From a virus (taxonomy: Duplodnaviria > Caudoviricetes), in the IMG/VR virus record IMGVR_UViG_3300033559_000345, positions 1 to 62,962 of that record: a stretch of 62,962 nt of DNA. One strand, 5' to 3'. This document shows positions 10,101-37,092 of this stretch, one piece after another. The first letter of the stretch is position 1; each line of letters starts with the position of its first letter. The notes below the pieces were generated by a model. The model did no database searches. It was not told the DNA's origin and saw only the letters and a list, made by a program, of their open reading frames with translations. Both the position numbers and the translations under genes were made by a program.

Positions 10101-11898
10101 CGTTATGCAGGTAGGATTCACTATTCAGAGAAAAATTATTGTACAAATAGACATCATGGATTTTACCGTCATTGTCTTTTATTGTGATTTTGTCTTCTGA
10201 TATATCTTGTATCTCACCATCAACAGGTGACTTTGGGATGCCAATCATCTGCATCGTTTTGTCCTGAATGCTATTGCCTTTTTCAGAAACTATATCAAAT
10301 AATGGGACTTCACGATTCTTAAGGGATACAGCTTGCTCCTGCATTTTTGACGCTGTAAGACCACGGTTTGCCTGAATTGAATCAAGAAATGGTATCATAT
10401 TGACAGAGCTGTCAAAAACCCCCTGGGCAAACGGAAAAATATAGTCGATTTTTGACGGCTCAACCTCGACAATATCATTTTTGTAGATAGCTCTGATTTT
10501 TTTGTTTTTAGGCTTAGGTTTTTCCCCACTTTTAATAGAATACTGATCAGGGAAAGCCACATACTTATCAAACCGATCCTTTGCTGTTAATTTAACCTTA
10601 TTACCCTCCGGATCAAGGTGCATTGCAACAATATCGTTACCCTCTTTATACGCCATGCTGCTTAAATGGTTTGCTATACCAATACCGCCACCTTCCGGCG
10701 TATGCATAGGATCAATGTATCCCATTTCAGTGTTTGAAATCTGGCGCATGTGGGTGGTAATAGCCTGGCTGCTTCCAATACCACCCTCTCCAGTCAGTGT
10801 TATTTTAGTCCCTTCCCCGAGAATGGAAAGTGGATTCTGCTGAGTAGGGGGGTTTGACAGCTTTGATGTGGTAATAGTACCAGCTGTATGTGGGTTAAAG
10901 GTCTGTGGCGATATAGCTGAGCGAATATTTCTTGTTTTCTGAAGCTTATGCAGGGTGCTCGAGGCTATTTTCTTACCATTTTTGAGAAGATTATCTTTCA
11001 TTAATGTGTCAGAGTCATGAATTGACTTAAAAGCCAGGGATTCACGGTCATCCGGTGCTACGTCCCCGGTATTTATATCAATGATTTTCTTGGAAGTAAT
11101 CGCCAAAACATCAGAATTTACGTGGTCAAATGGCTTTCCAAGTGTTTCCTTGGTAACCTCCGGGTCAAGCTTTGTGGTTTTTAGGCGTTCTGTAATGATT
11201 TCTTTGACCTCATTATAACCCATGCCGGCATCTGGGCTCTTTCCAAAGAGCGCAAAATACATTGTACCCGCATCCTGCTCCGGGTTCTTGTATCTGACAT
11301 TATTAGCCTTGAAGACAGCATCCCCCCATTGGCTTTTTATTTCATCATCCGTCTTTCCAGTCATCCTCAAAGCACTTATAAGAGGGATGGTTCTGTTACC
11401 ATAGTTCACCTTGAATAACTTCGTCTCAGGATCAAAGTTTATCTTAAAGTCTCTGTTGAACCCTCGATCGAAATCAATTGTTTTATCTGCATTTATGAAA
11501 CTACTGATATCACCATTGGACTGGCGCTGGGTATAAACACCAGGCTTGAGTCTGAGCTGCTTTGTGAATTGGTATTCATTACCTTTTACAATGTATGTAT
11601 TACGATCGGTCATCTTTGGGATATCGGCGATTTTCATATTTTCTACAGAACTGACAATTTCCCCTGTGCTTTTATCAATAAGATCCATTGATGCTCTTAT
11701 TGGGATAGACCATATGCCAAGCTGCTGCTTTACCAGCTTCTGCTTTGGTATATCCTCATTAGGCATAGCGCTATCATCGGCCTCTATTTTTCTAACCCTA
11801 AGCTGAACATCATTATTTTCCATCTCTTCAAGTACCCTCTGAATAGCGGGAAGTGTAGCTTGAATATTACTTTGATTGGTTAATACAGGTGTTTGCAT
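4138..11898 (-). CDS. rpoBC: Fused DNA-directed RNA polymerase beta-beta' subunit, intein-containing
   Basis: Beta motifs: YIDPMHTPEG, IPFLDSIQANRG, GYNFEDS, DKIVGLHGNK, GGKNLGRME. These continue in frame into beta' motifs: GLFDP, PVTPPKYRP, NRAPSLH, GGDFDGD, bridge helix STHGARGG, trigger loop EPSLNLAMKSFHTGG. ATG 11898 (MQTPV) chosen as start. Confidence 0.95.
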   Translation of the reverse strand: MQTPVLTNQSNIQATLPAIQRVLEEMENNDVQLRVRKIEADDSAMPNEDIPKQKLVKQQLGIWSIPIRASMDLIDKSTGEIVSSVENMKIADIPKMTDRNTYIVKGNEYQFTKQLRLKPGVYTQRQSNGDISSFINADKTIDFDRGFNRDFKINFDPETKLFKVNYGNRTIPLISALRMTGKTDDEIKSQWGDAVFKANNVRYKNPEQDAGTMYFALFGKSPDAGMGYNEVKEIITERLKTTKLDPEVTKETLGKPFDHVNSDVLAITSKKIIDINTGDVAPDDRESLAFKSIHDSDTLMKDNLLKNGKKIASSTLHKLQKTRNIRSAISPQTFNPHTAGTITTSKLSNPPTQQNPLSILGEGTKITLTGEGGIGSSQAITTHMRQISNTEMGYIDPMHTPEGGGIGIANHLSSMAYKEGNDIVAMHLDPEGNKVKLTAKDRFDKYVAFPDQYSIKSGEKPKPKNKKIRAIYKNDIVEVEPSKIDYIFPFAQGVFDSSVNMIPFLDSIQANRGLTASKMQEQAVSLKNREVPLFDIVSEKGNSIQDKTMQMIGIPKSPVDGEIQDISEDKITIKDNDGKIHDVYLYNNFSLNSESYLHNDPVVKVGDKVTQKQVLADNNFTKDGGHYALGANLDVAYIPWKGYNFEDSAVISESAAKKFTSQHMYDVKDRRTSSGVFSRAKFKAYFPEVLKAKNEKKLDADGVIRVGETVEPGEVVVAHLEKRMPTADDIAVGRLDKQLKRDMGDNSQVWDKHVRGVVTGVEKKGNHVVVNIKTEEPMKEADKIVGLHGNKHIISKILPDSEMPFNPRTGRNIDLTMSPIGVMNRINSSQILENAAGKIAEARGERYKIKNFSDEDSARKIMEELKELGLEDKETLIDPETGKEIVKKIQVGKSHILKLEHKVDHKFSARYRDGHDAYEQAASGGVEGGKNLGRMELGSLLARGAYTNLREMFDIKGQKNDEWWRALETGQTPPPLKNAYVWDKMISDLKGAGINVEQNGKQLLLNPMTDKNVETISAGALTRPTETYRKKNFEPIKGGLFDPERTGGMQGTRWTHIDLPEKTLNPITANAAAALAGVSRGILDDVIHGKKFVDEKTREIVAPGSHGAISGGKAVELLLSNIDLEQLKAKTEGVVKISNNPTDLNKAHKTLRYIKALNDSNMKPTDYLISKVPVTPPKYRPMFQMGGGETIVISDENELYQSIAQTSNAMSELKQVLDESQMGDDVNNIELAGVRGQIYDELKALQGLGDPTSFMLKMKNKKGFIRQMDGDDKQTKYGFIQRKVMQRRQDLIGRSTVTLDPNMDSDHIGLPKEMANKIFQPFIIQKLVGMGYSPIEAKKEVEKDSEAFRKARQIVADERVVIANRAPSLHKYNMLALKPILTDKKSIDVSGNIIAGNLGGDFDGDSALTSTMILLKKSSFCEISTEIPCSFGGDMVYYSKNDIDSFTVTKEVSMPTLEKLPVFMDDGDKIIHIHLEDFPRLQHTRVIKENGNEEFDVPSGIEIITVDNKTHKVLTVPVTKFSIHKNLENYIVTCNNKETLVLSSDQSAIAVNPDTWELERVAPSDLSDKRMMAKVLNTDINSSLNSIPLVNVGGQGSMLCKDKMPLTRDTGWLIGAIIGDGWVSDSSRTKTVCLASIIPVIGEKFSSVINSLLESDIACTVQHAPHEFQGFDCNSTKYIKSSINLAHNFSTMIGQKAKNKHLPDFYMAANEGFKLGLIEGLMDTDGLCQFTKAESKGKKTFTMQYSTISIRLAEELVTLLRAVGIKSSLKAYKYSQGRKGVEYKVIISTASVIDKDLKLIHPDKLSAYQEFCSTGYKDSQSIVARQDLVPVSKGIIDTMLQLAKYKVNISEYNAISDSKKTGCKYMTRVAAEKIIGLDINNALDSRWVEIVKNKSITWVYAKTVKLNPERIDMYDITAPGPYTFMATNGIIVQDTLQLHTPITEKAVKEALEWLPSKNMLKTGYDTVLNAPAKDTIAGTWLASKGVDGKDVSDISTMDQLKKAYQRGDIQLSDNITINGRTDRAIMHLANEGLVPEDQKWGVELNANRVNSWIRDVASKRIGSKDALNLADRLRSLGDKHTSRYGFTFGVSDSVVDKDIRDKYLKEAKKEAKTGDVIEVYSKTMDKIKKELLSKHQYDDIGIAVHSGAAKNIDNPSQIISMPGLLMDSEDRPIPIPVTRSYSEGLPISDYWTSTHGARGGSIKKSVQSFAPGYMTKDLVSSMYQTRIESDSPLDEEGLNYKTNDIKAIKDRFLAKDVRDDNGKIVAKRNELINDDMVNRFNQHNIKSINVQSPLTDPTPGDGFSSYSYGLDNNHKMPKRGDNIGVISAHTITEPSLNLAMKSFHTGGAFTGMKKRFDLGTAFDALDRTLRFTKKLPDKATLASMDGTVEGIDKSPGGGYDVTVSNNGAKEVYYVGHRNEPIVTIGQQVKKGEVISEGTPDPHEYLDLNGMKKTQRFLVEKLSDINEGKLDKRDIETIVRGITNTTKIDDPGDSNFTFGDNVPLTTVEWFNKNMKDKKPIQHTPKLVSLGIGGKSGASEDWLGRLAHSRLKEVFMEGTTQRWMTDVMNNTGNPLPDLIVTNKDRMVE
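6097..7683 (-). mobile_element. Intein with LAGLIDADG homing endonuclease (529 aa) inserted directly after the catalytic DFDGD
   Basis: Removing S(7683)...VQD(6097) gives GGDFDGD-TLQLHTP, collinear with bacterial NADFDGD-QMAVHVP. LAGLIDADG blocks WLIGAIIGDG and LIEGLMDTDG; block F/G MYDITAPGPYTFMATNGIIVQD. Confidence 0.9.
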
Positions 11899-11982
11899 AT
11901 AAAGATCTTTCAATATGAGGTTACATCTTCTTATTCTACATTCTAAAATAATACTTGTGCACCACATTCAAAAGGGAGTAAA

Positions 11983-16550: not shown

Positions 16551-16594
16551 TTATGAAACGCTTCGTAAAATGTAACAGGAAGGATAGTATAAAA

Positions 16595-17284
16595 ATGATT
16601 AAGAGCCCTCACTTTCTTGATATGGTTCAGTATGATAGGTTGTGTGACGCTGTTGAAGTTATGCATAAAAACAATGTTGCCATGCCTGTTATGACAAACC
16701 ATGAAAAGCCAATACCAACTATTATTACCGCCGCACAAAAAGGTGTAGACTTCTCTTTTTCCTCTGAAGAGGCTAATAGATTAGTACTTGCTTTCCAAGG
16801 GTCTGGGGCTAATATAAAAAGATGGAAGTCTAATTTTGAGCCGGATCTTATTAAAAATCCGGAATACCACGATGGATTTGCTGATGCTGCGCTGTTATTC
16901 AAGGAATATGCGTGCAGCAAGGCTGAGGCTGCCCTTGTTAAGGGGAAAGAATTGGTGGTGGAAGGGTATTCACGCGGGGGTGGTATCGCAATCTTTATTG
17001 CCATGCATCTCTATTCTGAGTTTAAGAAATATGTCCACTTAACTACCTTCGGGTCACCGAGGGTTCTTGGTGAAGCTTATCGTGATAAGTTCAATAAAAT
17101 GAACATCCATTATGATAATGTGCGTAACCATAAAGATCCTGTCACATATGCCGGAGCTCCTATCTTTAAGAACCTTGGATACATCAAAGAGCTTCCAATT
17201 CCAGCAAAGTGGAACCTACCATGGAAAATGATTCACAGACACACTGGTTATTATGAAAATATTAAACGTCTTACAACAGTTTAA
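16595..17284 (+). CDS. Class 3 lipase-like alpha/beta hydrolase
   Basis: Nucleophile elbow GYSRG, TTFGSPRV, DPVT and a C-terminal His (HRH); LAFQGS and HDGF also fit the family. ATG 16595 has an AGGAAGGA RBS (the ORF track starts at 16553). Confidence 0.8.
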   Translation: MIKSPHFLDMVQYDRLCDAVEVMHKNNVAMPVMTNHEKPIPTIITAAQKGVDFSFSSEEANRLVLAFQGSGANIKRWKSNFEPDLIKNPEYHDGFADAALLFKEYACSKAEAALVKGKELVVEGYSRGGGIAIFIAMHLYSEFKKYVHLTTFGSPRVLGEAYRDKFNKMNIHYDNVRNHKDPVTYAGAPIFKNLGYIKELPIPAKWNLPWKMIHRHTGYYENIKRLTTV

Positions 17285-22536: not shown

Positions 22537-23565
22537 ATGATTAACGGTTTAACAGCACAGGGTGGAGTTATAGTCCTGTCAGAGAAACCAGAATTTAAAG
22601 GGAAGATATCAACAGGTTTTGCGCCGGGTGAAGGTGGCAACAACACAAACTTCCCTAAAGCTGCGGGGTTTTTCAGAATACTGAAAAAAACCGTAAGAAA
22701 AGAGCGCCTTAAAAACTCGCAGAAAGTTATTGACAAAACTGTCTGGGTGGAAAACACTGAGGTTCAAGAGGCTATTGATCTGAAGAAAGACAAAGAGCCA
22801 AGACTCATAAAATGCGTATCATTTGTAGCTGAACCTGATCAGATGTGGTCAAGCAGGCTTATCATGTTTAACGCCAGAAATGAGATGGTGTGCTCTTCGT
22901 GCGGAGAGGGTTGTGTAGCTGATTTCTACCAGCAGCAGGGCGACTCACGCGTCCGAATTGATCGTGAGTGTTTATATCAGAATTGCCCGGACTACCAGTC
23001 TGGATCATGCAAAGAAAATGGTATGTTGATTGTATGGCCTGAAGCCGACATGGACCCGCTTACTCCATACAAATTTACAACAACATCAAAAAATACAATT
23101 GTTGCAATTGAAACAATGCTGCATAAACTTTATCAGCAGATGAAAATTGCACATATTGTTTCAATGCATAAAAATCCAGATACGCCTCAGATATTCATGG
23201 GCTTGAATGGCCTTGAGTTTTTCCTGAAGCATGAGCAAATCAACTCTGGAGGACGGACTGTATGGGTTACCAAGCTTATACCGTCAAAGACCACTCAGAT
23301 GATGATACGGGATGCAAATCAGGCGATAATATCTGACGGTGGGCAGCGGATGTTATCACAGGTAATGGCTCAATCAAAGCATCTTGTCTACGATGCTGAG
23401 TTCAGTGCTGTGCCTATGATTGATATGAATATGGAAATGTCAAGTGTAGACGATCTTGGGGTTACTATCCCAACAAGTGACACAGACATTGAAGAAGATG
23501 TAGTCATGGATGAGCCTACCCAGAAAAGGGTGGCACCTGATGCATCGGCCATTCTTGATGAGTAA
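22537..23565 (+). CDS. Gp3-like / recombination-directionality-factor-like protein
   Basis: KISTG...FPKAAGFF, Cys cluster (CSSC, CLYQNC, CKENG) and YKFTTTSKN resemble the phage gp3-like family; acidic tail. Confidence 0.55.
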   Translation: MINGLTAQGGVIVLSEKPEFKGKISTGFAPGEGGNNTNFPKAAGFFRILKKTVRKERLKNSQKVIDKTVWVENTEVQEAIDLKKDKEPRLIKCVSFVAEPDQMWSSRLIMFNARNEMVCSSCGEGCVADFYQQQGDSRVRIDRECLYQNCPDYQSGSCKENGMLIVWPEADMDPLTPYKFTTTSKNTIVAIETMLHKLYQQMKIAHIVSMHKNPDTPQIFMGLNGLEFFLKHEQINSGGRTVWVTKLIPSKTTQMMIRDANQAIISDGGQRMLSQVMAQSKHLVYDAEFSAVPMIDMNMEMSSVDDLGVTIPTSDTDIEEDVVMDEPTQKRVAPDASAILDE

Positions 23566-28546: not shown

Positions 28547-30310
28547 ATGGAAATTACAGAAGAGATGATCCTTGAAAGTGCAGAGGCTAAATTAGAAATA
28601 ATTAAGCACAGAGTTAATATGTCGCATGAAGAATTGATTACGTCAACAATTCAAAACATTATTGCTACAGGTGAAAGGTGTGGATCTGAATCCCAGGTTT
28701 CAAGAGTTGAAATTCCAAAAGTGTTACATACAAAATTATTTAATGACAGGTTTGGCAATGACTTTACAGTATATGCTTACGCCCACCCTGATCATGCAAA
28801 TAGTTTTATTATCACACTGGAGGGTACTAGTAGTATTGCCAATCCGCGCGACAGTGTTATTCAGTCTTTTTCTGAAATTATTGGCGTTGCACATAATCAT
28901 AATATTGTGTTCATAAAGCCTGGCAGCGCATCGGTGACTGGGAAAGGATCTGTTGCCATGCTGCTGAGCGGATGCGACCCCATTTCTTATGTATTGATCG
29001 AAAGGTTATATTGCTCGCCCAGTACTACGGATAATGTTGATGTGGTAAACCCCATCAATGACTATGAGACGTATAATAAGATAGTATCAATATCATATGT
29101 AATTAACTCTGTTGTTGTCAATTTTAATAACTACAGCAGTGATAATATGATTAAGACAAACTATGATATTAAATCTAATTACGTCGGTGTAATACCAGCA
29201 TTAATGGTGTATAACAAATCTGCAAGTGCAATGACACCGTCTGGCGGTAGATCGTGCTCTGTTCAATTCAAAAATCCCAAAAACAATACCGATAAAATAA
29301 ACAGCATCAGTAAGGTTTACAAGGATCTTATCACAGATGTTGTGTATGGCATTGAGATTGTCGATCAAGAGTTACATATTATTATATGCTCATTTGGTGA
29401 TGGAACATCTACAATGCAGTTTCACGGCGTGATGAAAAGTATCATAGAGCAAGTTAGTCTATCAGACAAACCTCTGGATGAGGTATATGCGATGCTTGGT
29501 GATAAGTATAAACATGCATTTGATCGCTTTTCAGCAGTATCTGAGTACAGTCTTAGATATGGCATACAAGGCGGTCTTGAGCAAAGGCGCAATGAGTACA
29601 ATGTGCTCTATAAGGATATTGAACGATTGATTACTGAGTTGTCCTATCTCAAAACAAGAACAAATCAGATTAATCGTGAAATAGAATTACTTTCAAAAGG
29701 TGAGCATGGGGTTAATTTTGGAGCTAAGATTGATCTTGTTAAAAGGAATCCAAAAATAAAAATGGTCACGTTTACACTTGATGGAAACCCTATTGATGAT
29801 GATTTTGACCCGTTAAAGGCTAGTGGGAAAGTTGAAATAAATATTTTCACTAATAATATTTATATCCACCACCAGGATGAGTGGTATGATATTGGAACAT
29901 TTCACATATCCCTGCAGATGACGCCTGACAGTAGCAAGGGAACATTGAGATATAAATTGAAAATTTTCAATACCAAGCATACTATTGATGCGTTCTGGGG
30001 TGAAAGTCAACATCCACATGTTAATTCCGAAGGTAATCCATGCCAGGGTGATGCTGTCACATCTATTACAGATGCGCTTGCATCTTATGATTTTGCGGCA
30101 GTTGTTCTTATCTGTGTGAACTATGTATCTTCATTTAATCCTAATGACCCTGCTGGGCGAAGTATAACAGCATGGCCCACGGTTCCCGAGAGCGTAGTTT
30201 ATGACAACAGTGCGGCAGATGTATCAATAATTGATACAGAGCGATTTATGGCTGCTAGAAAATCTGAATCAAATGCTTTACAAAACGCATTTGCTAACAG
30301 GATGGGATGA
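28547..30310 (+). CDS. Coiled-coil protein with a C-terminal prokaryotic E2 (UBC-like) domain
   Basis: QHPHVNSEGNPCQGD matches the E2 HPH/HPN...C catalytic signature (Cys codon 30041-30043); preceded by a heptad-like helix; adjacent to JAB, E1 and Ubl genes. Confidence 0.75.
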   Translation: MEITEEMILESAEAKLEIIKHRVNMSHEELITSTIQNIIATGERCGSESQVSRVEIPKVLHTKLFNDRFGNDFTVYAYAHPDHANSFIITLEGTSSIANPRDSVIQSFSEIIGVAHNHNIVFIKPGSASVTGKGSVAMLLSGCDPISYVLIERLYCSPSTTDNVDVVNPINDYETYNKIVSISYVINSVVVNFNNYSSDNMIKTNYDIKSNYVGVIPALMVYNKSASAMTPSGGRSCSVQFKNPKNNTDKINSISKVYKDLITDVVYGIEIVDQELHIIICSFGDGTSTMQFHGVMKSIIEQVSLSDKPLDEVYAMLGDKYKHAFDRFSAVSEYSLRYGIQGGLEQRRNEYNVLYKDIERLITELSYLKTRTNQINREIELLSKGEHGVNFGAKIDLVKRNPKIKMVTFTLDGNPIDDDFDPLKASGKVEINIFTNNIYIHHQDEWYDIGTFHISLQMTPDSSKGTLRYKLKIFNTKHTIDAFWGESQHPHVNSEGNPCQGDAVTSITDALASYDFAAVVLICVNYVSSFNPNDPAGRSITAWPTVPESVVYDNSAADVSIIDTERFMAARKSESNALQNAFANRMG

Positions 30311-30371: not shown

Positions 30372-31766
30372 ATGCCAGCTCAGAAAATTATGATCAAGAT
30401 TATTGACATTGATATTGGTACATGTACTGATTATCAAGCACAATATTCAAAGCAACTGGTTGTTGCTGCAACCAAAATAACTGGAATGATTCTAGATAAA
30501 ACCTTGTTCGAAAATCTTTCAGTACATATTGAGAATGGAGCTATAATAATTGAGTCAGAACATCATATTGGTGATGACTTCATTAGCACGCTTAATTCTG
30601 CAATAGGCTTTGGAACGAGATATGGAAATGTTATAGAGCATTTCATTGCAAACCCCTATAAGTCAAATTCTGATAATGAGTCACTTGCAAGTTTTGTGTA
30701 TAGCCATATAGTTGGCTCATGGGAAATAAGAAGACCCCTTGAGCATCTTTCAGAAATGTACACAAATTATGTTATGCATCGCACAGGGGTGGAGAATGAT
30801 GCTGACTATGACTTGGATGTTGAAGAGGAAATTGAGGATGATGACACAGGGGACATCGACCTTGATGATGTTGAGCCAGAGCCAGTGCAAGTTACAGAGC
30901 CGGCTCAAACTAATGTATCAAACATTGGCCGTAGAATGTCACAGATCTTTGCTGAAGACAGTTCACTGTCAGCTTATTATGATATGTACAAGAAAAGCAT
31001 AGAAGGCGTTGTTATTCCAGAGGATTGGTATAGATCAGTTGCCAATGGCGATCTTATGAATAAGATTCATGATTGGAATGGCAATGGTATCTTAACAGGT
31101 ATACTTGATCCTGTTAAAAATGATCCCATGATGCCGAGTTCTGCAAATTCAACATCTGTACAATTCAACGAAAGAATGGCTGCAATCGATAAAAGGATTG
31201 CTGAATCAGAGAATACAATAGTGACTCTCAAGAAGGAAAGAAGAGCAATGGTTGATTCCAGATTGTACATGGACTCATACATTAATAATGTAAGAAATTT
31301 CATGATACAGGTTAAATCCATGGATATTGTAAAAGGTGTAGACCTTGTACTTCGTGATAATCGGCCGAAGACCGCTGTTGTGCATCTGGTAGACATGACT
31401 GTTCCATATGAGGGTGCTGAAAAGGTTTTGAGCGGATTATCCATAGAAGTTAATCTCAGGATTTTTACGCCGAGCAATAGCAGTCGGATGAAGGCGTCGA
31501 GTGGTATACACATACTTGCGTCAGATCCGATTTCTGTCATGGATGATTATAAAACATTCTCTGTGTGCCCTCATGCAAGAGCTTTTAAGGATGCAACTGG
31601 AAACTGGAATCTTGCAGCGTGCTTTGGTGATTACGAAGATTGCATTAATCAGGCTATTATGGAAAATGCTTATGAAGACCTGATAAGAACAATCGCCGAG
31701 TTCATACGAAGCTATAATGAGAACGACTGTTTTGGTGAGTCTATCAAGCTCTACCCTAACGCCTAA
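30372..31766 (+). CDS. Second coiled-coil protein with a C-terminal E2-like domain
   Basis: CPHA...ACFGD (Cys 31620-31622). The last ~46 aa align without gaps to the first E2 (CFGD...SYNENDCFGESIKLYP vs CQGD...SFNPNDPAGRSITAWP). Acidic linker and coiled coil upstream. Confidence 0.65.
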   Translation: MPAQKIMIKIIDIDIGTCTDYQAQYSKQLVVAATKITGMILDKTLFENLSVHIENGAIIIESEHHIGDDFISTLNSAIGFGTRYGNVIEHFIANPYKSNSDNESLASFVYSHIVGSWEIRRPLEHLSEMYTNYVMHRTGVENDADYDLDVEEEIEDDDTGDIDLDDVEPEPVQVTEPAQTNVSNIGRRMSQIFAEDSSLSAYYDMYKKSIEGVVIPEDWYRSVANGDLMNKIHDWNGNGILTGILDPVKNDPMMPSSANSTSVQFNERMAAIDKRIAESENTIVTLKKERRAMVDSRLYMDSYINNVRNFMIQVKSMDIVKGVDLVLRDNRPKTAVVHLVDMTVPYEGAEKVLSGLSIEVNLRIFTPSNSSRMKASSGIHILASDPISVMDDYKTFSVCPHARAFKDATGNWNLAACFGDYEDCINQAIMENAYEDLIRTIAEFIRSYNENDCFGESIKLYPNA

Positions 31767-31844: not shown

Positions 31845-33512
31845 ATGAATGTTGAAATTTGGAAAGAGGCTATTAAAGAGCCTGAGTTAACCTTCACAGT
31901 GAGTGCCGATGCAAAACTTAAAGCTATGCTGAAGCACCATAAGAATGAAGTGATGTTTCTTTTACTCATCAAAGAGCGCAAGCCCCATGTTCTTGAGGTG
32001 TATGACATCCTTTACCCGAAGAATACCACTATGGATGGTGCATTCTGCAAGATTGATCATGATGATCACAGTAATAGTTTCTATAACCGGTTTGTTCAGC
32101 TGTATGGCTCTGATAGAACACTTGAGATATGGCGCGATCAAATAGGAATTGCGCATAGTCATGTCAATATGGGGGCTAGCTTCTCCGGGTATGACAATAC
32201 ATTCATTGATGACTATTTGAAGCAGTACCGGTCAAACTATTTTGTATTCTCAGTGTTTAATAAGAGTATGCAGCATACAATTCATCTGTATGATTCCGAG
32301 CAAAGGGCTAAGTTTCTTATGCCATATATCGTACAGCCATCTGAAAAAGAAATTGCAGCATGTATGAGCCGAATTGCACGGGAGTCATCTATGATACTGC
32401 AGGATATTGCAGGGGGCAGTGGTGACCTGAAGTCTGGTTATCAGCGTTTTGTAAACCTTATACAGAGTCCCGTTGATGAAAAGGTATTGTCCAGAATTGA
32501 CAAGAGCATTGAATATCTTGCTACACGCAGAATGAATGACTTGGATAACACTAAGAACGGCCATCTAGCTAGATTTCAATCTGCCTATGACGGCTATGGG
32601 TATAATGGATGTCAAAACAACTCTGAGTACACCCATGGTGGTTTATCCCGAAACATTGAGCGCGATATGTTTGATGAAGTAATATACGGCTCTAAGCAGC
32701 CGGTTAATACTAAGAAGTCAAAACCAAGCAGTTCAACCGCTGTTGTGTCAGATGAGTTTGCAGAAATTGATGTAGACTCAAATATGATTCTTGATAGTCT
32801 GGATTATATAATGGGAGTAAACTATCCTGAGCTTGTGCATGTATGGTTTAATTACGGAGCGCCAGGTGCCCAGGTGATACCCAGAATTTTCAAAAATATG
32901 CCTATTGATAATGTCAAGGCTATGGTTATACAAAGGCTAATTGACATGTCGTTCTATGATGTTGGTGATTCAGTATTTGATATTGCATCGCTAAAATCAA
33001 TATATGATAGTACCAATGAGTTTTCTGCAAATCTTGTTGCGAATAATCCTAATGCATATGTGAGCTGCGTAGTTGACGGTGAGGCTCATACTGCCGCCAA
33101 ATCTATAATCATGAAGCTTGTAGGTACAGGGATGTATGAAGAGGCTCTTGATGCTTTTATGCAAGAGTCTTATCTGGAAATGTTCGCCGACTATGTTGAT
33201 GACTGTTCTACAGATGGCGGCCTTGATAATAGTGATCTCAACTTTATCGGCACAATGTTTAAAATGTATGTCAAGGGTTTGATTCTGTGGGTGATTACAT
33301 CAGCAATATTTGATGGTCACAACCCAAAAGAATTTAACAAGTCTGTTAATAAGGTTATCAGAGACAGTAATATTGCAGATAAAAGCAATATTGTCGATCT
33401 TGTTTATGATAATAGTAGATCTGACGATCCTCAATATGGAGCTGCTTATTTTGATGGGCTGTTAAATGAAAAGCTAACAGCGTTGGATAAAACAGGTTTC
33501 TCTATACATTAA
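31845..33512 (+). CDS. JAB/MPN+ (JAMM) metallopeptidase with a long C-terminal extension
   Basis: Exact HxH-x7-S-x2-D motif HSHVNMGASFSGYD (32154-32195) with an upstream Glu (KNEV). Confidence 0.85.
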   Translation: MNVEIWKEAIKEPELTFTVSADAKLKAMLKHHKNEVMFLLLIKERKPHVLEVYDILYPKNTTMDGAFCKIDHDDHSNSFYNRFVQLYGSDRTLEIWRDQIGIAHSHVNMGASFSGYDNTFIDDYLKQYRSNYFVFSVFNKSMQHTIHLYDSEQRAKFLMPYIVQPSEKEIAACMSRIARESSMILQDIAGGSGDLKSGYQRFVNLIQSPVDEKVLSRIDKSIEYLATRRMNDLDNTKNGHLARFQSAYDGYGYNGCQNNSEYTHGGLSRNIERDMFDEVIYGSKQPVNTKKSKPSSSTAVVSDEFAEIDVDSNMILDSLDYIMGVNYPELVHVWFNYGAPGAQVIPRIFKNMPIDNVKAMVIQRLIDMSFYDVGDSVFDIASLKSIYDSTNEFSANLVANNPNAYVSCVVDGEAHTAAKSIIMKLVGTGMYEEALDAFMQESYLEMFADYVDDCSTDGGLDNSDLNFIGTMFKMYVKGLILWVITSAIFDGHNPKEFNKSVNKVIRDSNIADKSNIVDLVYDNSRSDDPQYGAAYFDGLLNEKLTALDKTGFSIH

Positions 33513-33534: not shown

Positions 33535-34287
33535 ATGAAGATGGTGAGTAATTTCACCAGACAGATGAGTTTTGTTCCACCGGAGAAATTCGATGGAACA
33601 TGCGTATCTGTTATTGGTGTTGGAGCTGTAGGTTCCAACATTGCAATGTTACTTGCGCAGATGGGGTATGGTAGGCCAGGGTGTGGCGAACTACATCTGT
33701 ATGATTTTGACATCGTGGAAGAGCACAATCTGCCTAACCAGGCATTTTTACTCGAACACGTTGGCATGAAAAAAGTCGATGCTATGAAGGATCTTATCGA
33801 GAAGAAAATGGGCTTTTCCGTAAATGCTCACGATCGTAAGGTGACCGAGGACATGGCAGATGACCCGTCAATACGTAGATCTCACTACGTATTTATGGCT
33901 GTTGACTCAATGGCGGCTCGTAAGAGTATTCTGAAGAGCTTCCTGGAATTCAACATTACTACCAGGCTCATGATTGAGTCTCGCATGGGTGCTACTGATG
34001 GTATGGTTTTTGCCATTAACCCGCAGGACTACAATGAATGCCAGGTCTGGAGCGATAAGTGGTATACTGATGAAGAGTCAGTTGCTGGAGGGTGCGGAAC
34101 ATCAGCAAGTGTTGGTGTGACTACAACTTTCCTGGCTGCTTACAATGTCAGTACGATGATGCATCATTTCAGGGCAACTGATATACAGCACATCAATCCC
34201 ACAATCAGGAACGAGCTTCACCTTGAGCTCAATCCGTTCAATCTGATCAGCTTTGACTATAAAGCTGGATCAACAAAAACTTTTTAA
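33535..34287 (+). CDS. ThiF/MoeB/E1-family ubiquitin-like activating enzyme
   Basis: VIGVGAVGS nucleotide-binding loop, YDFDIVEEHNLPNQ, KVDA, AVDSMAAR and a candidate catalytic Cys in GGCGTS (34093-34095). Confidence 0.92.
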   Translation: MKMVSNFTRQMSFVPPEKFDGTCVSVIGVGAVGSNIAMLLAQMGYGRPGCGELHLYDFDIVEEHNLPNQAFLLEHVGMKKVDAMKDLIEKKMGFSVNAHDRKVTEDMADDPSIRRSHYVFMAVDSMAARKSILKSFLEFNITTRLMIESRMGATDGMVFAINPQDYNECQVWSDKWYTDEESVAGGCGTSASVGVTTTFLAAYNVSTMMHHFRATDIQHINPTIRNELHLELNPFNLISFDYKAGSTKTF

Positions 34288-34320
34288 TTTCCAAACAACC
34301 CAAAAGAAAGGTGCCTAATT

Positions 34321-34812
34321 ATGGTACGTGTAACTATTGTTCGTATGTCTCAGGACGCTCAGACCCTTGAATTCAATGAACCCGCCTATGTCCGTGATGC
34401 TTTCGCCCGCCTCGGAGTTGACCCTGCAAACTACACCAAATCGATCAAGGGTCGCAGTGTTGGCCTTGATACCCAGCTTATCGATGGTGATACTCTGGTG
34501 CTTGGTGTCAACAAGCTCTCTGCAGCGTTTGACTACATCATGGTCAGCTTTGTCTCCTCCGGAACAGGTGGATATGCACTTGAACCTATTAAGGTTCCCG
34601 TGTCACCTGCGGATGACGGCGTGCTGACAATTCGGGATGTCTATAACATGAAGAAAACTGAAATCGATTCTTCGTATTTCCGCCAGGCATCAGCTGACAA
34701 CTTCAAAATCTCCATGAATGGTGTCAATGCAACATTCGATACCAGAATCCGTGCAAACTATGCCGGTGAGGTATTTGTTGTGTTCAGCAAACCTATGAGT
34801 GCTGCGAAGTAG
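34321..34812 (+). CDS. Tandem ubiquitin-like (beta-grasp) protein with two Ubl units
   Basis: Unit 1 (aa 1-69): VRVTIV...VRDAF...IKGRSVGLDTQLIDGDTLVLGVNKLSAA, a ThiS/MoaD-like LxDGD motif. Unit 2: IMVSFV...TIRDV...MNGVNATFDTRI...VFSKPMSAA-K. Lies directly after the E1. Confidence 0.8.
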   Translation: MVRVTIVRMSQDAQTLEFNEPAYVRDAFARLGVDPANYTKSIKGRSVGLDTQLIDGDTLVLGVNKLSAAFDYIMVSFVSSGTGGYALEPIKVPVSPADDGVLTIRDVYNMKKTEIDSSYFRQASADNFKISMNGVNATFDTRIRANYAGEVFVVFSKPMSAAK

Positions 34813-34853
34813 TTTGATCCATAAACCCGTTTGAGTAGCTCCTTCCGGGTTGG

Positions 34854-34887
34854 AAGACATATCACTTTTGTGATATGTCTTTTTTTT
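34854..34887 (+). terminator. Intrinsic terminator ending the ubiquitin-like operon
   Basis: Perfect stem AAGACATATCAC-tttt-GTGATATGTCTT followed by a T-run. Confidence 0.8.
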
Positions 34888-34962: not shown

Positions 34963-37092
34963 TTAGATCGATGGATTTTTTCTCCTTGGAGGCATAACCT
35001 CAGGATTAGGCTTTGCTGCTGCTGTGTTATTTTTAGATATCGCAGCCGCCTCATCGCCTGCGACCCCTGGCGATGCAAATGACTCAACCTGTGTTGGTGC
35101 ATCAGTTGCTGTCTGATCACCCTGGACGTATTGCGGTATCTCCCCTGGTGTCTTATCCTGTGCCATCGCAAGGTTAGGGATAAGATCGGCTTCAATAAGA
35201 TTCTTTTCACGAAGATTATTGTACACCTCTTCAAATAGTGTTGGTGTAGAAGCTTTCATGCTCATCATTCTCATTGTAAATTCATCAGGCGCAACCTTTG
35301 ACATTACTGCAAATCGCTCCGTAAGCCTCATGATAAGGTCAGGTATAGAAACGGATTCTGAAGTAATACCCGACTGGCCAGCAAGGGTGTTGACCTCCTG
35401 ATTGATATAATCAGCGTTCTCACGCTGACGCTTCTCATTCATCTTCATCTGCTGCTCATACTTCTTACGCTCACCAATCTCTCTACGATTCTGATTTTCC
35501 ATATCAGCTTCTGCGGCGAAGATGGCATCAATAATACGAGCTTCACCAGTTGCTTTTGCATTACCCTTAGACTCAGCAATACGAAGTTGAACCATATCAT
35601 CAAGCTCAGACTGACGGCGCTCATATTCTATATCCGGATCATACCCCATCTCTTTAACTGCAGTGTGCTTTGATATAACAGCATCTGATGGGGATCCGGA
35701 GGCTGCACTCAAAATCATCTGCTTCCTCTGCATATCATCAGCCATTTTAAATTCGCTGAATTTTACTCTGATATCAGGAATGCTATATTGCGCAGATATT
35801 TTCTTTTTAATGAAGTTTAAGACATTCTGCATGTCAGTTCGGTAGTTCAGATAACTGTTCTCAACAACTCTTAATGAGACATTACTTCCAGACCAGGACG
35901 CCCCACCCTTTATGATTTCCGGAATAGTACCCATACCTATGATAATATCATTTTCAACCATCTGGATCTCAGATGAAACAGAAAGTGATTTAGCATTTCC
36001 ACCAAGAAGATGTACACCGACTGGTTGTGGAATCAGAAGTACCTTGTTTTTATCCTTACGCCAGGCGTGTATAGCCTCTTCAACCTTTGTCCTCCAAAGA
36101 CCAAGGTCCATTGATATATGAGGGCTAACCTCACCCTGCTGAAGTGGATAGAGCATTCTCAATGGAACAATATATTCCATTGCAATCATCTCGTTACCCT
36201 TCTTAAGAATCTGATTGTGCACTACATTTTTAAGGACAGGCATAACAGCTGGTATACCATAACCACGTTCAGACGGTACAAGGTATGATATATTATCGCG
36301 CTTTAGATGAAAGAGGTTATCACGATTAAGCTTTAATCTTTTATTAGCGTTAATAGCAGTAAGCACTTCTTTCGGCGTTGAGTTAATGATGTCCATGTTA
36401 CCGGATGACACAGCCTTCTTCATAACCTCCGGAATATCATAATAGTAAAATGAGTCACCGGTGATATTGTTAAAAACAACATCAACATGCAGGATGTCCC
36501 AGTGAATAATATTTACACCGCGATAATCCTTTGTGATGATATCTTCAAAGTCAAGATTGCCATCGTATCCACAAGATGTGCACTTCCCCTTGTAGTGCTT
36601 ATTGGAATACTTCAACCCTTTTATAGATGTTATGTTTTTTTTGGTTTTACATTCAGGACATGTAATATTCCTTTTAAATGGAAAATGTACTGAGATATAA
36701 CTGTTGCCATATCCATGATAATTACTCCCGGCAATAATAAGTTGTCGGCGTATATCAATGCATTCTTCAAGAATTAATCGCCATATCTCTTCTGGTTCAC
36801 GATCAGTCTTTATAGATGTCTCCCAATCCTCATACACTAGTTTTGTAATTGGATATTCAGACATCCTTGTGATAATCGTGTTAATCAGAGAGTCTCCAAA
36901 AAGAAATGATCCTATAAGCTTAAAAATCTTCTTCAAACTAGTTGGAAGATATGTACTGGTCATATCAAGAAATGGATTGTCATACTGTAAATCAGCATCA
37001 TCAAGTGAGAATTTTATGTTACCACTATTACTTCTACTTGAAGTCGGTGTTGCAAGTCCAGATCCAGCGGTCAAGGTATCAAAATCTGCCAT
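34963..37092 (-). CDS. Putative portal protein with a zinc-ribbon insertion
   Basis: Portal-like pattern YHGYGNSYISV...LFHLKR...GYGIP...I(I)GMGT.PE; CPEC...CTSC insert; C-terminal coiled coil; located in the virion block. Confidence 0.7.
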   Translation of the reverse strand: MADFDTLTAGSGLATPTSSRSNSGNIKFSLDDADLQYDNPFLDMTSTYLPTSLKKIFKLIGSFLFGDSLINTIITRMSEYPITKLVYEDWETSIKTDREPEEIWRLILEECIDIRRQLIIAGSNYHGYGNSYISVHFPFKRNITCPECKTKKNITSIKGLKYSNKHYKGKCTSCGYDGNLDFEDIITKDYRGVNIIHWDILHVDVVFNNITGDSFYYYDIPEVMKKAVSSGNMDIINSTPKEVLTAINANKRLKLNRDNLFHLKRDNISYLVPSERGYGIPAVMPVLKNVVHNQILKKGNEMIAMEYIVPLRMLYPLQQGEVSPHISMDLGLWRTKVEEAIHAWRKDKNKVLLIPQPVGVHLLGGNAKSLSVSSEIQMVENDIIIGMGTIPEIIKGGASWSGSNVSLRVVENSYLNYRTDMQNVLNFIKKKISAQYSIPDIRVKFSEFKMADDMQRKQMILSAASGSPSDAVISKHTAVKEMGYDPDIEYERRQSELDDMVQLRIAESKGNAKATGEARIIDAIFAAEADMENQNRREIGERKKYEQQMKMNEKRQRENADYINQEVNTLAGQSGITSESVSIPDLIMRLTERFAVMSKVAPDEFTMRMMSMKASTPTLFEEVYNNLREKNLIEADLIPNLAMAQDKTPGEIPQYVQGDQTATDAPTQVESFASPGVAGDEAAAISKNNTAAAKPNPEVMPPRRKNPSI

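What the first reader, a model, noticed from the sequence alone, without database searches (positions are those of the whole stretch)
34321..34812. Polyubiquitin-like precursor with Ala-Ala instead of Gly-Gly ends
Seen: both beta-grasp units end in nearly the same tail, NKLSAA (ends 34527) and KPMSAA (ends 34806). The first is followed by unit 2 and the second by a single Lys. No C-terminal Gly exists. Known: eukaryotic polyubiquitin is a head-to-tail precursor capped by an extra residue, and Cap2-associated CD-NTases can be conjugated through a terminal Ala. Inference: the JAB cuts after SAA twice, releasing two different Ala-terminated modifiers that may be orthogonal to Gly-specific host enzymes.
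Basis: partly seen in the sequence, partly recalled or inferred. Interest (0 to 1): 0.9.

Follow-up and report, generated by a model that had tools for sequence, protein, structure and literature searches.

The report
Phage two-unit ubiquitin-like precursor, alanine-ended
A large uncultured phage encodes, next to its own activating enzyme and trimming protease, a small protein made of two different ubiquitin-like units that both end in the same glycine-free Ser-Ala-Ala tail. This probably means a viral protein-tagging system with unusual chemistry, but no cutting or tagging has been shown.

Summary
ORF 34321..34812 (+) encodes 163 aa. Residues 1-69 end in NKLSAA, residues 70-162 end in KPMSAA, and one Lys and the stop follow. 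Neither tail contains Gly.

Both units are beta-grasp in predicted models. The gene closes a phage operon carrying an intact JAMM/JAB peptidase and a 250-aa ThiF-type E1.

Only two relatives were found among billions of proteins. One (59% identical, same synteny) keeps both SAA tails. The other (34%) has YGA and HGA. The last Ala is invariant in both tails, and what follows it varies.

Related Ubl-X-JAB-E1 cassettes occur in crAss-like, Flavobacterium and jumbo phages. All 9 Ubls read there keep a Gly tail, and 8 of them carry a C-terminal extension after it.

My best reading is a JAB-processed hetero-di-Ubl precursor activated at Ala. Internal cleavage is plausible but unproven, and the cut could lie one residue earlier.

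Rivals are an ISG15-like uncut two-domain modifier and a sulfur carrier. No E2 could be established. I class it as a new variant of a known kind.

The parts
34321..34812 (+). ORF of the 163-aa two-unit ubiquitin-like protein (Ubl2), including the stop codon
   Evidence: The homolog P0002 is 59% identical and in the same synteny. pN 0.27 versus pS 0.83.
34305..34313 (+). Ribosome-binding-site-like AGAAAGGTG, 7 nt before the ATG
   Evidence: Read directly.
34321..34527 (+). Unit 1 (aa 1-69), a ThiS/MoaD/TtuB-like beta-grasp
   Evidence: AF2 model. VIA Z 10.5, rmsd 1.3, 62 aligned with TtuB 5gha_H. Z 9.8 with Mth1743. Homologs give sub-threshold Pfam ThiS hits of 19.5 and 21.0 bits against a cut-off of 22.5.
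34510..34527 (+). Tail 1, NKLSAA (aa 64-69), at the unit 1/unit 2 junction; candidate internal cleavage site
   Evidence: pLDDT is below 50 for residues 65-70. K65 and A69 are invariant in 3 of 3 family members.
34528..34806 (+). Unit 2 (aa 70-162), a second beta-grasp with no sequence similarity to unit 1
   Evidence: DSSP order. Foldseek di-Ub/ISG15 alignments span both domains. ESM Atlas model, residues 71-163, versus RnfH (TM 0.65) and ThiS (TM 0.51) clusters. No BLASTP similarity to unit 1.
34789..34806 (+). Tail 2, KPMSAA (aa 157-162)
   Evidence: K157, P158 and A162 are invariant in 3 of 3.
34807..34812 (+). One-residue cap (Lys163) and the TAG stop
   Evidence: The cap varies: K, Q or DA in the three family members.
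34852..34883 (+). Terminator-like hairpin that ends the + strand operon; it faces the terminator of the convergent portal gene
   Evidence: 14-pair stem followed by a T run.
33535..34287 (+). ThiF/MoeB-type E1-like adenylyltransferase, 250 aa, single domain
   Evidence: Pfam ThiF 5.8e-21. It aligns to E. coli ThiF 1zud over residues 21-195, including DSMAAR against DNMATR, and a Cys in GGCGTSASVG against NCRTAGVVG. PADLOC E1-E2 and BilD partial hits.
31845..33512 (+). JAB/JAMM peptidase (N-terminal ~175 aa) with a long C-terminal region, 555 aa
   Evidence: Pfam Prok-JAB E 8e-4, 19.7 bits, below the cut-off of 25. H104, S105, H106, S114, G115 and D117 are invariant in an alignment of 6 phage JABs.
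30372..31766 (+). Unassigned 464-aa protein 'X2', a paralog of X1 in its C-terminal domain (CPH...C-F-G-D at aa 399-420)
   Evidence: No Pfam, PHROG, NCBIfam or PDB match. C-terminal similarity to X1 at E 5e-4.
28547..30310 (+). Unassigned 587-aa protein 'X1' (H489-P-H ... C499-Q-G-D502); possible E2-like or JAMM-like catalytic partner, unresolved
   Evidence: AF2 pLDDT 53.5. Foldseek gave no hit at E <= 0.001.

Best explanation
The gene encodes a precursor of two different ubiquitin-like (beta-grasp) units joined head to tail. It belongs to a phage-borne JAB peptidase + ThiF-type E1 cassette.

Proposed steps (all inferred):
1. The JAB metalloprotease removes the one-residue C-terminal cap.
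2. It most likely also cuts the disordered junction after the tail of unit 1.
3. Each unit then has a free alanine carboxylate, after A69 and A162, or one residue earlier after A68 and A161.
4. The E1 adenylates that Ala end with ATP for transfer onward.

Transfer is most likely conjugation to phage or host proteins, possibly through the two unassigned HPH...C proteins upstream.

Shown here: the ORF, the two folds (in predicted models), the Gly-free tails and their conservation, intact JAMM and ThiF motifs, and the operon context.
For: 1. Architecture and tails.

2. Both tails sit the same distance (6 residues) after the last strand of their unit, and both are low-confidence, flexible stretches.

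3. Tail conservation:
- Both tails are kept in P0002 although synonymous sites are saturated.
- In the 34% homolog P0003 both tails change together, to YGA and HGA.
- The final Ala is invariant in both tails in 3 of 3 members. It is followed by variable residues and indels at the junction and at the C-terminus. This pattern is expected of two sites read by the same enzymes.

4. Unit 1 lines up without gaps with the single-domain Ubl of a related cassette (L005). There are 12 residues from DGD to the end of TGG (L005), YGA (P0003) and SAA (window). This gives a GG, GA, AA series.

5. In 9 of 9 related phage cassettes read, residues follow the Gly tail (KSG or TGG) of the Ubl.
- In 8 of 9 this is an unrelated C-terminal extension, encoded as a separate gene in cr106_1; in L005 it is only two residues, IV.
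- In cr106_1 the Ubl and its extension are separate genes, split by an HNH gene two residues after KSG.
- Separation at that junction therefore seems to be the norm for this cassette.

6. The partner enzymes look functional. The JAMM residues are invariant. The E1 aligns with ThiF, including the Asp of DxxxxR and the crossover-loop Cys region. The synteny JAB-E1-Ubl2 facing the portal gene is kept in L008.

7. Precedents, from passages read:
- BilC pre-processes BilA.
- The JAB of BubCD cuts a Ubl-E2 fusion.
- Ala-ended CD-NTases are conjugated by Cap2.

8. Complex prediction, JAB residues 1-200 with unit 1 residues 1-76, gave weak support only.
- Score 0.32, best of 3 controls 0.00.
- The mark was reached by 58 of 80 solved complexes and 2 of 110 mismatched pairs. 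At 0.60 or under it was reached by only 7 of those 80 and by both mismatches that passed.
- The runs agree in at least 74% of contacts, and partner pLDDT is at least 79.
- JAB-Ubl complexes are solved, so this may reflect likeness only.
Against: - No cleavage, adenylation or conjugation has been observed.
- The family has only 3 members (two lineages), so the co-variation rests on one independent comparison.
- Two-domain Ubls that stay uncut (ISG15, type I BilA) are well known.
- No E2 could be established. X1 and X2 have no family match, the X1 model has pLDDT 53.5, and Foldseek found no hit at E <= 0.001.
- The E1 lacks the Arg of the ThiF/MoeB NLxRQ motif (NLPNQ), so its activity is not certain.
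- The window's protein itself gets no Pfam hit.
- The cut register (68/161 or 69/162) is undetermined.
- The complex prediction is only weak support.
Confidence: 0.45

Rival explanations
1. ISG15/FAT10/type I BilA-like modifier. The two beta-grasp domains stay together. Only the C-terminal cap is removed, and the whole 162-aa (or 161-aa) protein is activated at its terminal Ala. The junction tail would be a linker kept for other reasons, such as flexibility or a relic of gene fusion.
For: - Foldseek's best whole-length matches include ISG15 and FAT10, as well as linear di-ubiquitin.
- Type I Bil Ubls 'overwhelmingly' have two beta-grasp domains, and Ubl2 proteins behave as monomers (Gong et al., PMC11601603, section 5 read).
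- Cleavage at the junction is unproven.
Against: - The junction carries the same tail as the C-terminus, at the same distance from the last strand.
- The junction tail changes in step with the C-terminal tail in P0003, and its last Ala is invariant and followed by indels.
- In 8 of 9 related cassettes read, an unrelated extension follows the Ubl tail (only two residues in L005), and cr106_1 has the two parts as separate genes.
- From recall, not tested here: the N-terminal domains of ISG15 and FAT10 lack a modifier-type tail.
Confidence: 0.3
2. Sulfur-carrier system rather than a protein tag. Like ThiS-ThiF, MoaD-MoeB, TtuB, CysO-Mec or QbsE-QbsD, the E1 adenylates the tail. A thiocarboxylate is formed and delivers sulfur to a phage nucleic-acid or cofactor modification. 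The JAB only trims the carrier.
For: - Unit 1's nearest solved structures are sulfur carriers: TtuB Z 10.5, MoaD-type Z 10.0 and 9.3.
- The E1 is a minimal 250-aa ThiF/MoeB-type enzyme whose best NCBIfam rows are ThiF. It has a Cys aligned with the ThiF crossover-loop Cys region.
- No E2 was established.
- From recall: JAMM + E1 + small beta-grasp trios without an E2 are the CysO and QbsE pattern.
Against: - No sulfurtransferase, rhodanese, desulfurase or PP-loop enzyme was found among the 16 neighbouring proteins scanned with Pfam.
- From recall: known sulfur carriers keep Gly-Gly.
- The cassette always travels with large X proteins bearing an HxH...C motif, and sits in replication modules.
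- A two-carrier fusion has no precedent that I found.
Confidence: 0.15
3. No covalent chemistry. The protein is an unprocessed adaptor or scaffold made of two beta-grasp domains, and its place next to the E1 and JAB genes is incidental.
For: Beta-grasp domains have many non-modifier roles. The window's own protein gets no family hit.
Against: - The JAB-E1-Ubl2 synteny is conserved in L008.
- Ubl + JAB + E1 co-occur in at least 9 other phage loci read.
- The small-residue tails with a variable cap are conserved.
Confidence: 0.05

Closest known systems
Bil (BilABCD) bacterial ISG15-like ubiquitination systems
   Same: Both have a Ubl with two beta-grasp domains (type I BilA), a JAB peptidase that pre-processes the Ubl C-terminus, and an E1. 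The gene set and order in crAss-like relatives (Ubl-X-JAB-E1) mirror BilA-B-C-D.
   Different: - Bil is a bacterial anti-phage defence; this cassette is carried by phages.
- Type II BilA has a universally conserved Gly; here neither tail has a Gly.
- The BilD E1 has IAD-AAD-CYS domains; this E1 is a 250-aa single ThiF domain. The PADLOC BilD hit covers only profile positions 213-320 of 453.
- No BilB-type E2 could be recognised.
Eukaryotic polyubiquitin and ubiquitin-fusion precursors
   Same: Modifier units are arranged head to tail, each ending in a small-residue tail. There is one extra cap residue at the C-terminus, and release by a dedicated peptidase is presumed (the polyubiquitin facts are recalled, not checked).
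   Different: - The units here are unrelated in sequence.
- There are two units only.
- The tail is Ala-Ala, not Gly-Gly.
- The peptidase would be a JAMM enzyme encoded next door.
- The nearest analogy is a hetero-fusion such as ubiquitin-NEDD8/RUB1 or ubiquitin-ribosomal protein genes (recalled).
Type II CBASS Cap2/Cap3 conjugation of CD-NTases
   Same: It is the only documented E1-type conjugation through a C-terminal Ala. In 1,583 CD-NTases the C-terminus is Gly or Ala, the E. cloacae enzyme ends in Ala, and G-to-A is tolerated (PMC10097602). A JAB peptidase (Cap3) reverses it.
   Different: - The conjugated protein there is an enzyme without a beta-grasp fold.
- Cap2 is an E1-E2 fusion.
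- The system is a host defence.
Bub (6E/DUF6527) operons and multi-ubiquitin proteins
   Same: [quoted passage not shown] A JAB domain cuts a Ubl-containing fusion protein to free the Ubl. Tandem Ubl repeats in prokaryotic operons were noted in 2006 (PMC1779556).
   Different: - Cleavage there is after a conserved Gly (G229).
- The multi-domain Ubls are not reported to be cut apart.
- The operons are bacterial.
Sulfur carriers ThiS/MoaD/TtuB with ThiF/MoeB
   Same: These give the best structural matches for unit 1 and the best family matches for the E1.
   Different: - The window's protein does not reach the Pfam ThiS threshold.
- It has no Gly-Gly.
- It is a two-unit fusion.
- No sulfur-transfer partner was seen nearby.
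Ubl-X-JAB-ThiF cassette of crAss-like and Flavobacterium phages (annotated only as 'thiamine biosynthesis protein' and 'metalloprotease')
   Same: - The E1 is homologous (25-30% identity, 79 phage records).
- The JAB has the same invariant residues.
- The Ubl carries a tail followed by extra sequence.
- The cassette sits among replication genes.
   Different: - Those Ubls are single beta-grasp domains ending in KSG, followed by a long non-Ubl extension, and the Ubl gene comes first.
- Here the Ubl gene comes last, the 'extension' is a second Ubl with its own tail, and Gly is replaced by Ala.

Membership tests
Ubiquitin-like beta-grasp fold | Unit 1 adopts a beta-grasp fold (beta-beta-alpha-beta-beta) | tested here: met
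   AF2 model, pLDDT 80-91 over residues 1-60. VIA Z 10.5, rmsd 1.3, 62 aligned with TtuB; Z 8.7-9.1 with ubiquitin entries. This is a predicted model, not a solved structure.
Ubiquitin-like beta-grasp fold | Unit 2 adopts a beta-grasp fold | tested here: met
   DSSP order E73-79, E90-94, H104-120, E129-137, E150-156. Foldseek di-Ub/ISG15/FAT10 alignments of 162-176 columns at E 5e-8 to 1e-6. ESM Atlas model, residues 71-163: TM 0.65 to an RnfH cluster and 0.51/0.60 to a ThiS cluster. The VIA rows covered unit 1 only, and unit 2 was not folded alone.
Pfam ThiS family (PF02597) | Score at or above the gathering cut-off (22.5 bits) | tested here: not met
   The window protein gave 0 families at E <= 0.1. 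The homologs P0002 and P0003 scored 19.5 and 21.0 bits, both below the cut-off. I therefore describe it as ThiS-like in fold and do not file it as a member.
Canonical conjugatable Ubl / sulfur carrier | C-terminal Gly (usually Gly-Gly), exposed or exposable | tested here: not met
   There is no Gly in residues 63-80 or 150-163. The tails are SAA. The relative P0003 has one Gly in each tail (YGA, HGA).
Polyubiquitin-type precursor | Head-to-tail repeats of the same modifier | tested here: not met
   Unit 1 versus unit 2 gave no BLASTP alignment at E <= 100.
Polyubiquitin-type precursor | Each unit ends in the modifier tail, with a short non-conserved cap after the last unit | tested here: met
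   NKLSAA and KPMSAA followed by K. The caps are K, Q or DA in the 3 members.
Polyubiquitin-type precursor | Proteolytic release of the units | not testable with these tools
   Needs biochemistry. The only indirect result is complex prediction, JAB(1-200) + unit 1(1-76): weak support, 0.32 versus best control 0.00.
Bil (BilABCD) system | [quoted passage not shown] | tested here: not met
   The E1 is 250 aa with one ThiF domain. The PADLOC BilD hit (38.6 bits) covers profile positions 213-320 of 453 only.
Bil (BilABCD) system | Separate E2 (BilB) | tested here: inconclusive
   X1 and X2 have no PADLOC, Pfam or NCBIfam hit. X1 carries HPH-x7-C-x2-D, which fits an E2 HPN...Cys pattern and also a JAMM spacing. 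The AF2 model has pLDDT 53.5. Foldseek's best E was 0.085, with Atg3 and Ubc12 only at E 0.28-0.54. hhalign against the phage JAB profile gave probability 0.1.
Bil (BilABCD) system | JAB/JAMM peptidase with catalytic residues | tested here: met
   H104-S-H106, S114 and D117 are invariant in 6 of 6 aligned phage JABs. Pfam Prok-JAB scored 19.7 bits, below the cut-off of 25.
ThiF/MoeB-type E1 (PF00899) | Pfam ThiF above the cut-off; nucleotide-binding and Mg-binding motifs | tested here: met
   75.2 bits against a cut-off of 28.1. GVGAVGS, DFD and DSMAAR align with ThiF 1zud. Departure: NLPNQ replaces NLQRQ, so the Arg is missing.
Sulfur-carrier pathway | Sulfur donor or acceptor enzyme (rhodanese, desulfurase, PP-loop thiolase, synthase) in the neighbourhood | tested here: not met
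   None was found among the 16 window proteins scanned with Pfam (6, 10). The window is about 35% of the genome, so absence from the whole phage is not shown.

The most novel reading that the evidence does not exclude
A lytic phage makes two different ubiquitin-like modifiers from one hetero-di-Ubl precursor. Its own JAMM peptidase cuts after each Ala-ended tail, and its own minimal E1 activates an alanine carboxylate on a beta-grasp protein. Neither a naturally Gly-free beta-grasp modifier nor a virus-encoded poly-Ubl precursor turned up in my literature searches. This would be the extreme form of an undescribed Ubl-X-JAB-E1 system that is widespread in phage replication modules (crAss-like, Flavobacterium and jumbo phages). 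It would tag phage or host proteins during infection, and its tail chemistry could keep it apart from host ThiS/MoaD enzymes and from host JAB-based defences.
Probability: 0.3. Interest if true: 0.85.

Novelty: new variant of a known kind. Interest (0 to 1): 0.6.

Why it matters
Ubiquitin-like conjugation in bacteria has so far been characterised as host defence against phages (Bil, type II CBASS). This cassette is on the phage side. It has relatives in crAss-like phages, which are among the most abundant gut viruses, where the genes are annotated only as 'thiamine biosynthesis protein' and 'metalloprotease'.

If the two units are released and activated, three things would follow:
- E1 enzymes and JAMM peptidases can work on Ala-ended beta-grasp modifiers. 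That would widen the rule that such modifiers need a terminal Gly.
- The polyubiquitin-style precursor strategy exists in viruses of bacteria.
- There would be a small, tractable three-protein system (163 + 250 + about 200 aa) for testing tail specificity.

It would also give a starting point for asking what phages tag during replication.

Tried and rejected
**More family members**

Every search beyond the two relatives came back empty.
- tblastn against 50,697 phage records: no match.
- Word-index search: 2 hits among 59 candidates, one of them the protein itself.
- Full HMMER scan of 1.84 billion representatives: 3 hits at E <= 0.001, namely the protein itself, P0003 and the distant triple-Ubl P0004.
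- Profile search: 3 of 2,011 candidates.
- Locus scans:
  - 0 of 103 stretches in viral contigs.
  - 1 of 99 in metagenome contigs.
  - 0 of 55 in genome contigs.
  - 0 of 7 for P0003.
  - 0 of 8 for P0004.
  - 0 of 2 for the JAB.
- The listing of cluster members gave no names.

**Identity of X1 and X2**
- No Pfam, PHROG, PADLOC or NCBIfam assignment; the only row was a PADLOC PbeC match for X2 at E 0.012 (12.1 bits), which I treat as chance.
- PDB by sequence: X1 had only 2 chance-level rows (E 0.17, 0.26) and X2 had none.
- No homologs of the X1 C-terminal part.
- No relatives in viral contigs.
- The ESM Atlas gave only unnamed clusters and ThiI rows at TM 0.20-0.30.
- The AF2 model of the X1 C-terminal domain has pLDDT 53.5.
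- Foldseek found nothing at E <= 0.001.
- hhalign against the phage JAB profile gave probability 0.1.
- BLASTP of X2 against crAss001 gp78 gave nothing.
- I therefore dropped both the claim that the system has an E2 and the idea that X is a second JAB. Both remain leads.

**Other points**
- I first read crAss001's KSGA as a second Ala-ended tail. Eight KSG tails followed by G, G, A, A, A, A, K and I show that the conserved residue is the Gly, so I withdrew that reading.
- Portal relatives (Vibrio phage D69 and three others) do not carry the cassette next to the portal gene.
- The VIA searches aligned unit 1 only, so they say nothing about unit 2.
- Literature. Searches found no paper describing a phage-encoded Ubl-JAB-E1 cassette or an Ala-ended beta-grasp modifier. 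Searches were swamped by unrelated matches, because 'crass' also matches Crassostrea.
- The library lacks most subscription journals, and I did not open supplements. Table S1 of PMC11601603 and Supplementary Figure 4b of PMC10557695 could list Bil or Bub Ubls with non-Gly ends.
Full report
**1. What is in the sequence**

The window is an IMG/VR virus record of 62,962 bases that CheckV rates about 35% complete.

ORF 34321..34812 on the + strand encodes 163 residues. An AGAAAGGTG ribosome-binding-like site precedes it. A 14-pair hairpin with a T run follows at 34852-34883.

It is the last gene of a + strand block and faces the convergent portal-like gene 34963..37092. That gene is 28-31% identical to the portals of Vibrio phages D69, D181 and D148 and of Salmonella phage Arash, all about 181-188 kb.

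A script confirmed the tails:
- SAA at residues 67-69, ending at base 34527.
- SAA at residues 160-162, ending at base 34806.
- One Lys, then TAG.
- No Gly after residue 62 in unit 1, and none after residue 149 in unit 2.

The two tails use different codons. The two units have no BLASTP similarity to each other. The repeated tail is therefore a protein-level feature, not a DNA repeat. Shuffling the protein puts the same tripeptide at both ends at a frequency of 2.25e-4. The positions were chosen after the fact, so this number is only indicative.

**2. Folds**

I ran AlphaFold2 on an alignment of the three family members. The model has mean pLDDT 79.5 and shows two beta-beta-alpha-beta-beta modules. 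Residues 65-70 (the junction tail) and 161-163 are below pLDDT 50.

- Foldseek against the PDB returns linear di-ubiquitin, ISG15 and FAT10 at E 5e-8 to 1e-6. The alignments span 162-176 columns, which covers both units.
- VIA-align places unit 1 nearest the sulfur carriers TtuB (Z 10.5, rmsd 1.3, 62 residues) and MoaD-type proteins. Ubiquitin entries score Z 8.7-9.1. These rigid-body searches covered unit 1 only.
- For unit 2, independent support comes from the ESM Atlas's own model. Residues 71-163 match an RnfH cluster (TM 0.65) and a ThiS-type cluster (TM 0.51/0.60).

By sequence the window protein matches no Pfam, PHROG, PADLOC or NCBIfam model. Its two homologs give sub-threshold ThiS hits.

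**3. Neighbours**

Directly upstream on the same strand are four genes.
- **ThiF-type E1**, 250 aa, 33535..34287.
  - Pfam ThiF scores 75.2 bits.
  - It aligns with E. coli ThiF, including the DxxxxR motif and a Cys opposite the ThiF crossover-loop Cys region.
  - It has NLPNQ where ThiF has NLQRQ.
- **JAB protein**, 555 aa, 31845..33512.
  - The JAB domain is N-terminal.
  - H104, S105, H106, S114, G115 and D117 are invariant in an alignment of six phage JABs.
  - The Pfam Prok-JAB score is below threshold.
- **X2**, 464 aa, 30372..31766, unassigned.
- **X1**, 587 aa, 28547..30310, unassigned.

Upstream again are an SNF2 helicase and other replication and recombination genes.

X1 and X2 share a C-terminal domain (E 5e-4). 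X1 carries H489-P-H...C499-Q-G-D502. This pattern fits both an E2-type HPN...Cys arrangement and the JAMM spacing HxH-x7-[S]-x2-D. Neither reading could be confirmed:
- The AF2 model has pLDDT 53.5.
- Foldseek found no hit at E <= 0.001. Atg3 and Ubc12 appear only at E 0.28-0.54.
- hhalign against the JAB profile gave probability 0.1.
- No homologs were found.

**4. The family and its tails**

Searches over billions of proteins and three contig collections found only two relatives.

- **P0002** is 59% identical. It lies on a 4.4-kb metagenome contig in the same order: JAB C-terminus, E1 (199 of 250 residues identical), Ubl2, then a convergent portal gene.
- **P0003** is 34% identical, 164 aa, and on a 98-kb contig that I could not fetch.

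The tails read as follows:

| Protein | Junction tail, then next residues | C-terminal tail, then cap |
|---|---|---|
| Window | NKLSAA, then F | KPMSAA, then K |
| P0002 | RKLSAA, then AK | KPMSAA, then Q |
| P0003 | RKTYGA, then SG | KPYHGA, then DA |

Three points follow.
- The last Ala is invariant in both tails in 3 of 3 proteins.
- The residue before it is Ala/Ala in two proteins and Gly/Gly in the third, so the two tails change together.
- What follows the invariant Ala is variable and carries indels at both sites.

Between the window and P0002, synonymous sites are saturated (pS 0.83) while pN is 0.27. The tails are therefore held by selection.

A fourth, distant protein (P0004, E 1.4e-6) is a triple repeat of a Ubl unit. 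Each copy ends in VVGN or VKGN. Head-to-tail Ubl arrays with a repeated tail therefore exist in this neighbourhood of sequence space.

**5. A wider phage cassette**

The E1 has relatives at 25-36% identity in 6 IMG/VR loci and 79 GenBank phage records. These are Bacteroides crAss-like phages, Flavobacterium psychrophilum phages, and Xanthomonas and Erwinia jumbo phages.

I read nine such loci: L002, L005, L006, crAss001, Fpv3, DAC15, cr106_1, bajarodcaudo virus 1 and cr128_1. The order is Ubl, a 380-514-aa unassigned protein with an HSH...C-type motif, JAB, then E1. The cassette sits among primase, UDG and nuclease genes.

All nine Ubls keep a Gly in the tail:
- Eight have KSG, followed by G, G, A, A, A, A, K and I.
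- One has TGG, followed by IV.

Eight of the nine continue into, or are followed by, a non-Ubl extension; the ninth, L005, ends only two residues (IV) after its TGG tail. In cr106_1 an HNH endonuclease gene splits the Ubl from its extension two residues after KSG. That is a natural demonstration that the two parts can work as separate polypeptides.

I did not examine L003 or L007. L004 (at a contig end) and PhiXhv-12 showed no clear Ubl.

Unit 1 of the window protein is the counterpart of these cassette Ubls. Counting from the shared DGD, the window (SAA), P0003 (YGA) and L005 (TGG) all reach the end of the tail after 12 residues. This gives a GG, GA, AA series.

**6. Mechanism**

The best-supported reading is that the protein is a precursor in a JAB + E1 Ubl system.

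By analogy with characterised systems, the JAB should remove what follows the tail and the E1 should adenylate the new carboxylate:
- BilC cuts BilA at G97|A98 (PMC10557695, passages read).
- The JAB domain of BubCD cuts a Ubl-E2 fusion after G229 (PMC11601596, passages read).

Here that carboxylate can only be Ala. There is precedent for this in Cap2-conjugated CD-NTases that end in Gly or Ala (PMC10097602, passages read).

Four observations suggest the internal junction is also cut:
- The two tails are identical and co-vary.
- The junction is flexible in the model.
- The related cassettes share a 'Ubl followed by something else' architecture.
- One complex prediction gave weak support, for JAB 1-200 with unit 1 1-76.
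  - Score 0.32 against a best control of 0.00.
  - The mark was reached by 58 of 80 solved complexes and 2 of 110 mismatches. At 0.60 or under it was reached by only 7 of the 80 and by both mismatches.
  - The runs agree in at least 74% of contacts, and partner pLDDT is at least 79.
  - It may simply reflect likeness to solved JAB-Ubl complexes.

None of this is a measurement.

The cut register is open. The L005 alignment favours Ala69/Ala162 as the new ends. The Ser-Gly|Ala pattern of crAss phages and of BilA favours Ala68/Ala161.

**7. Rivals**
- **(a) An uncut, ISG15-like two-domain modifier.** It is consistent with the fold matches and with type I BilA. It does not explain the junction tail.
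- **(b) A sulfur carrier pair.** It is consistent with the TtuB/MoaD-like fold, the minimal ThiF-type E1 and the lack of a recognisable E2. No sulfur-transfer enzyme was seen among 16 neighbouring proteins, and the Gly-Gly end is missing.
- **(c) A non-covalent adaptor.** It is unlikely given the conserved synteny and tails.

**8. Comparison and novelty**

Already known:
- Tandem beta-grasp Ubls.
- JAB pre-processing.
- E1-dependent activation.
- Conjugation through Ala.

I did not find the following in six literature searches:
- A beta-grasp modifier without any tail Gly.
- A hetero-di-Ubl precursor whose two units carry the same tail.
- The existence of this cassette on lytic phages.

The search library lacks many subscription journals, and I did not open supplements.

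The protein fails the defining tests for Pfam ThiS membership, for a canonical Gly end, for identical polyubiquitin repeats and for a BilD-type E1. I therefore class it as a new variant of a known kind and do not file it under any named family.

Noticed in passing
L009:2238-6648 (crAss001 gp79-gp76); L012:1607-5618 (Fpv3); L013, L015, L016; L002:3126-6666; L006:2874-6546: A conserved Ubl(+extension) - 380-445-aa protein - JAB - ThiF cassette sits in the replication module of crAss-like and Flavobacterium phages. GenBank annotates it only as 'thiamine biosynthesis protein', 'metalloprotease' or hypothetical. The Ubl tail is KKIKSG or KSGG. In the crAss-like members the extension ends in an acidic SEI-D-MF-FV-type peptide.
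   Followed up: partly
L014:665-1868 (uncultured phage cr106_1): An HNH endonuclease gene (945-1460) splits the Ubl (665-943, ending KSGKF) from its usual C-terminal extension (1476-1868). The split lies at the presumed JAB cleavage junction.
   Followed up: partly
window 30011-30052 (X1 aa 489-502) and 31566-31631 (X2 aa 399-420): X1 and X2 are unassigned paralogs. X1 has HPH-x7-C-x2-D and X2 has CPH...C-F-G-D. The 892-aa protein next to the E1 of Xanthomonas phage PhiXhv-12 has IHPHM...GSLCLG (L011:3238-5916). The motif could mark an E2-like or a JAMM-like active site; this is unresolved.
   Followed up: partly
window 33535-34287: The phage E1 and its relatives (L002, L004, L005, L006) have DFDIVEE-x-N-[LI]-x-x-[QS], without the Arg of the ThiF/MoeB NLxRQ motif. 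The window has NLPNQ.
   Followed up: no
P0004 (251 aa, 44-kb ENA contig, not fetched): A protein made of three near-identical Ubl repeats. Each ends in RPVVGN or RPVKGN, and the last copy ends the protein. It is distantly similar to unit 1 (E 1.4e-6) and looks like a true poly-Ubl array with a one-residue Asn after each Gly.
   Followed up: no
window 4138-11967 (-): A 2,609-aa ORF of unknown function. I did not analyse it.
   Followed up: no
window 16553-17284 (+) and 22537-23565 (+): A class 3 lipase domain protein (Pfam Lipase_3, 1.2e-12) and a Gp3-like recombination-directionality-factor-like protein (1.4e-11) lie within the replication block.
   Followed up: no
window 34963-37092 (-): The portal-like protein has no PHROG hit at E <= 1e-5. 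It is 28-31% identical to the portal of Salmonella phage Arash and to the unannotated portal-like ORFs of Vibrio phages D69, D181 and D148. The phage therefore belongs to a sparsely sampled group with genomes of about 180 kb.
   Followed up: partly
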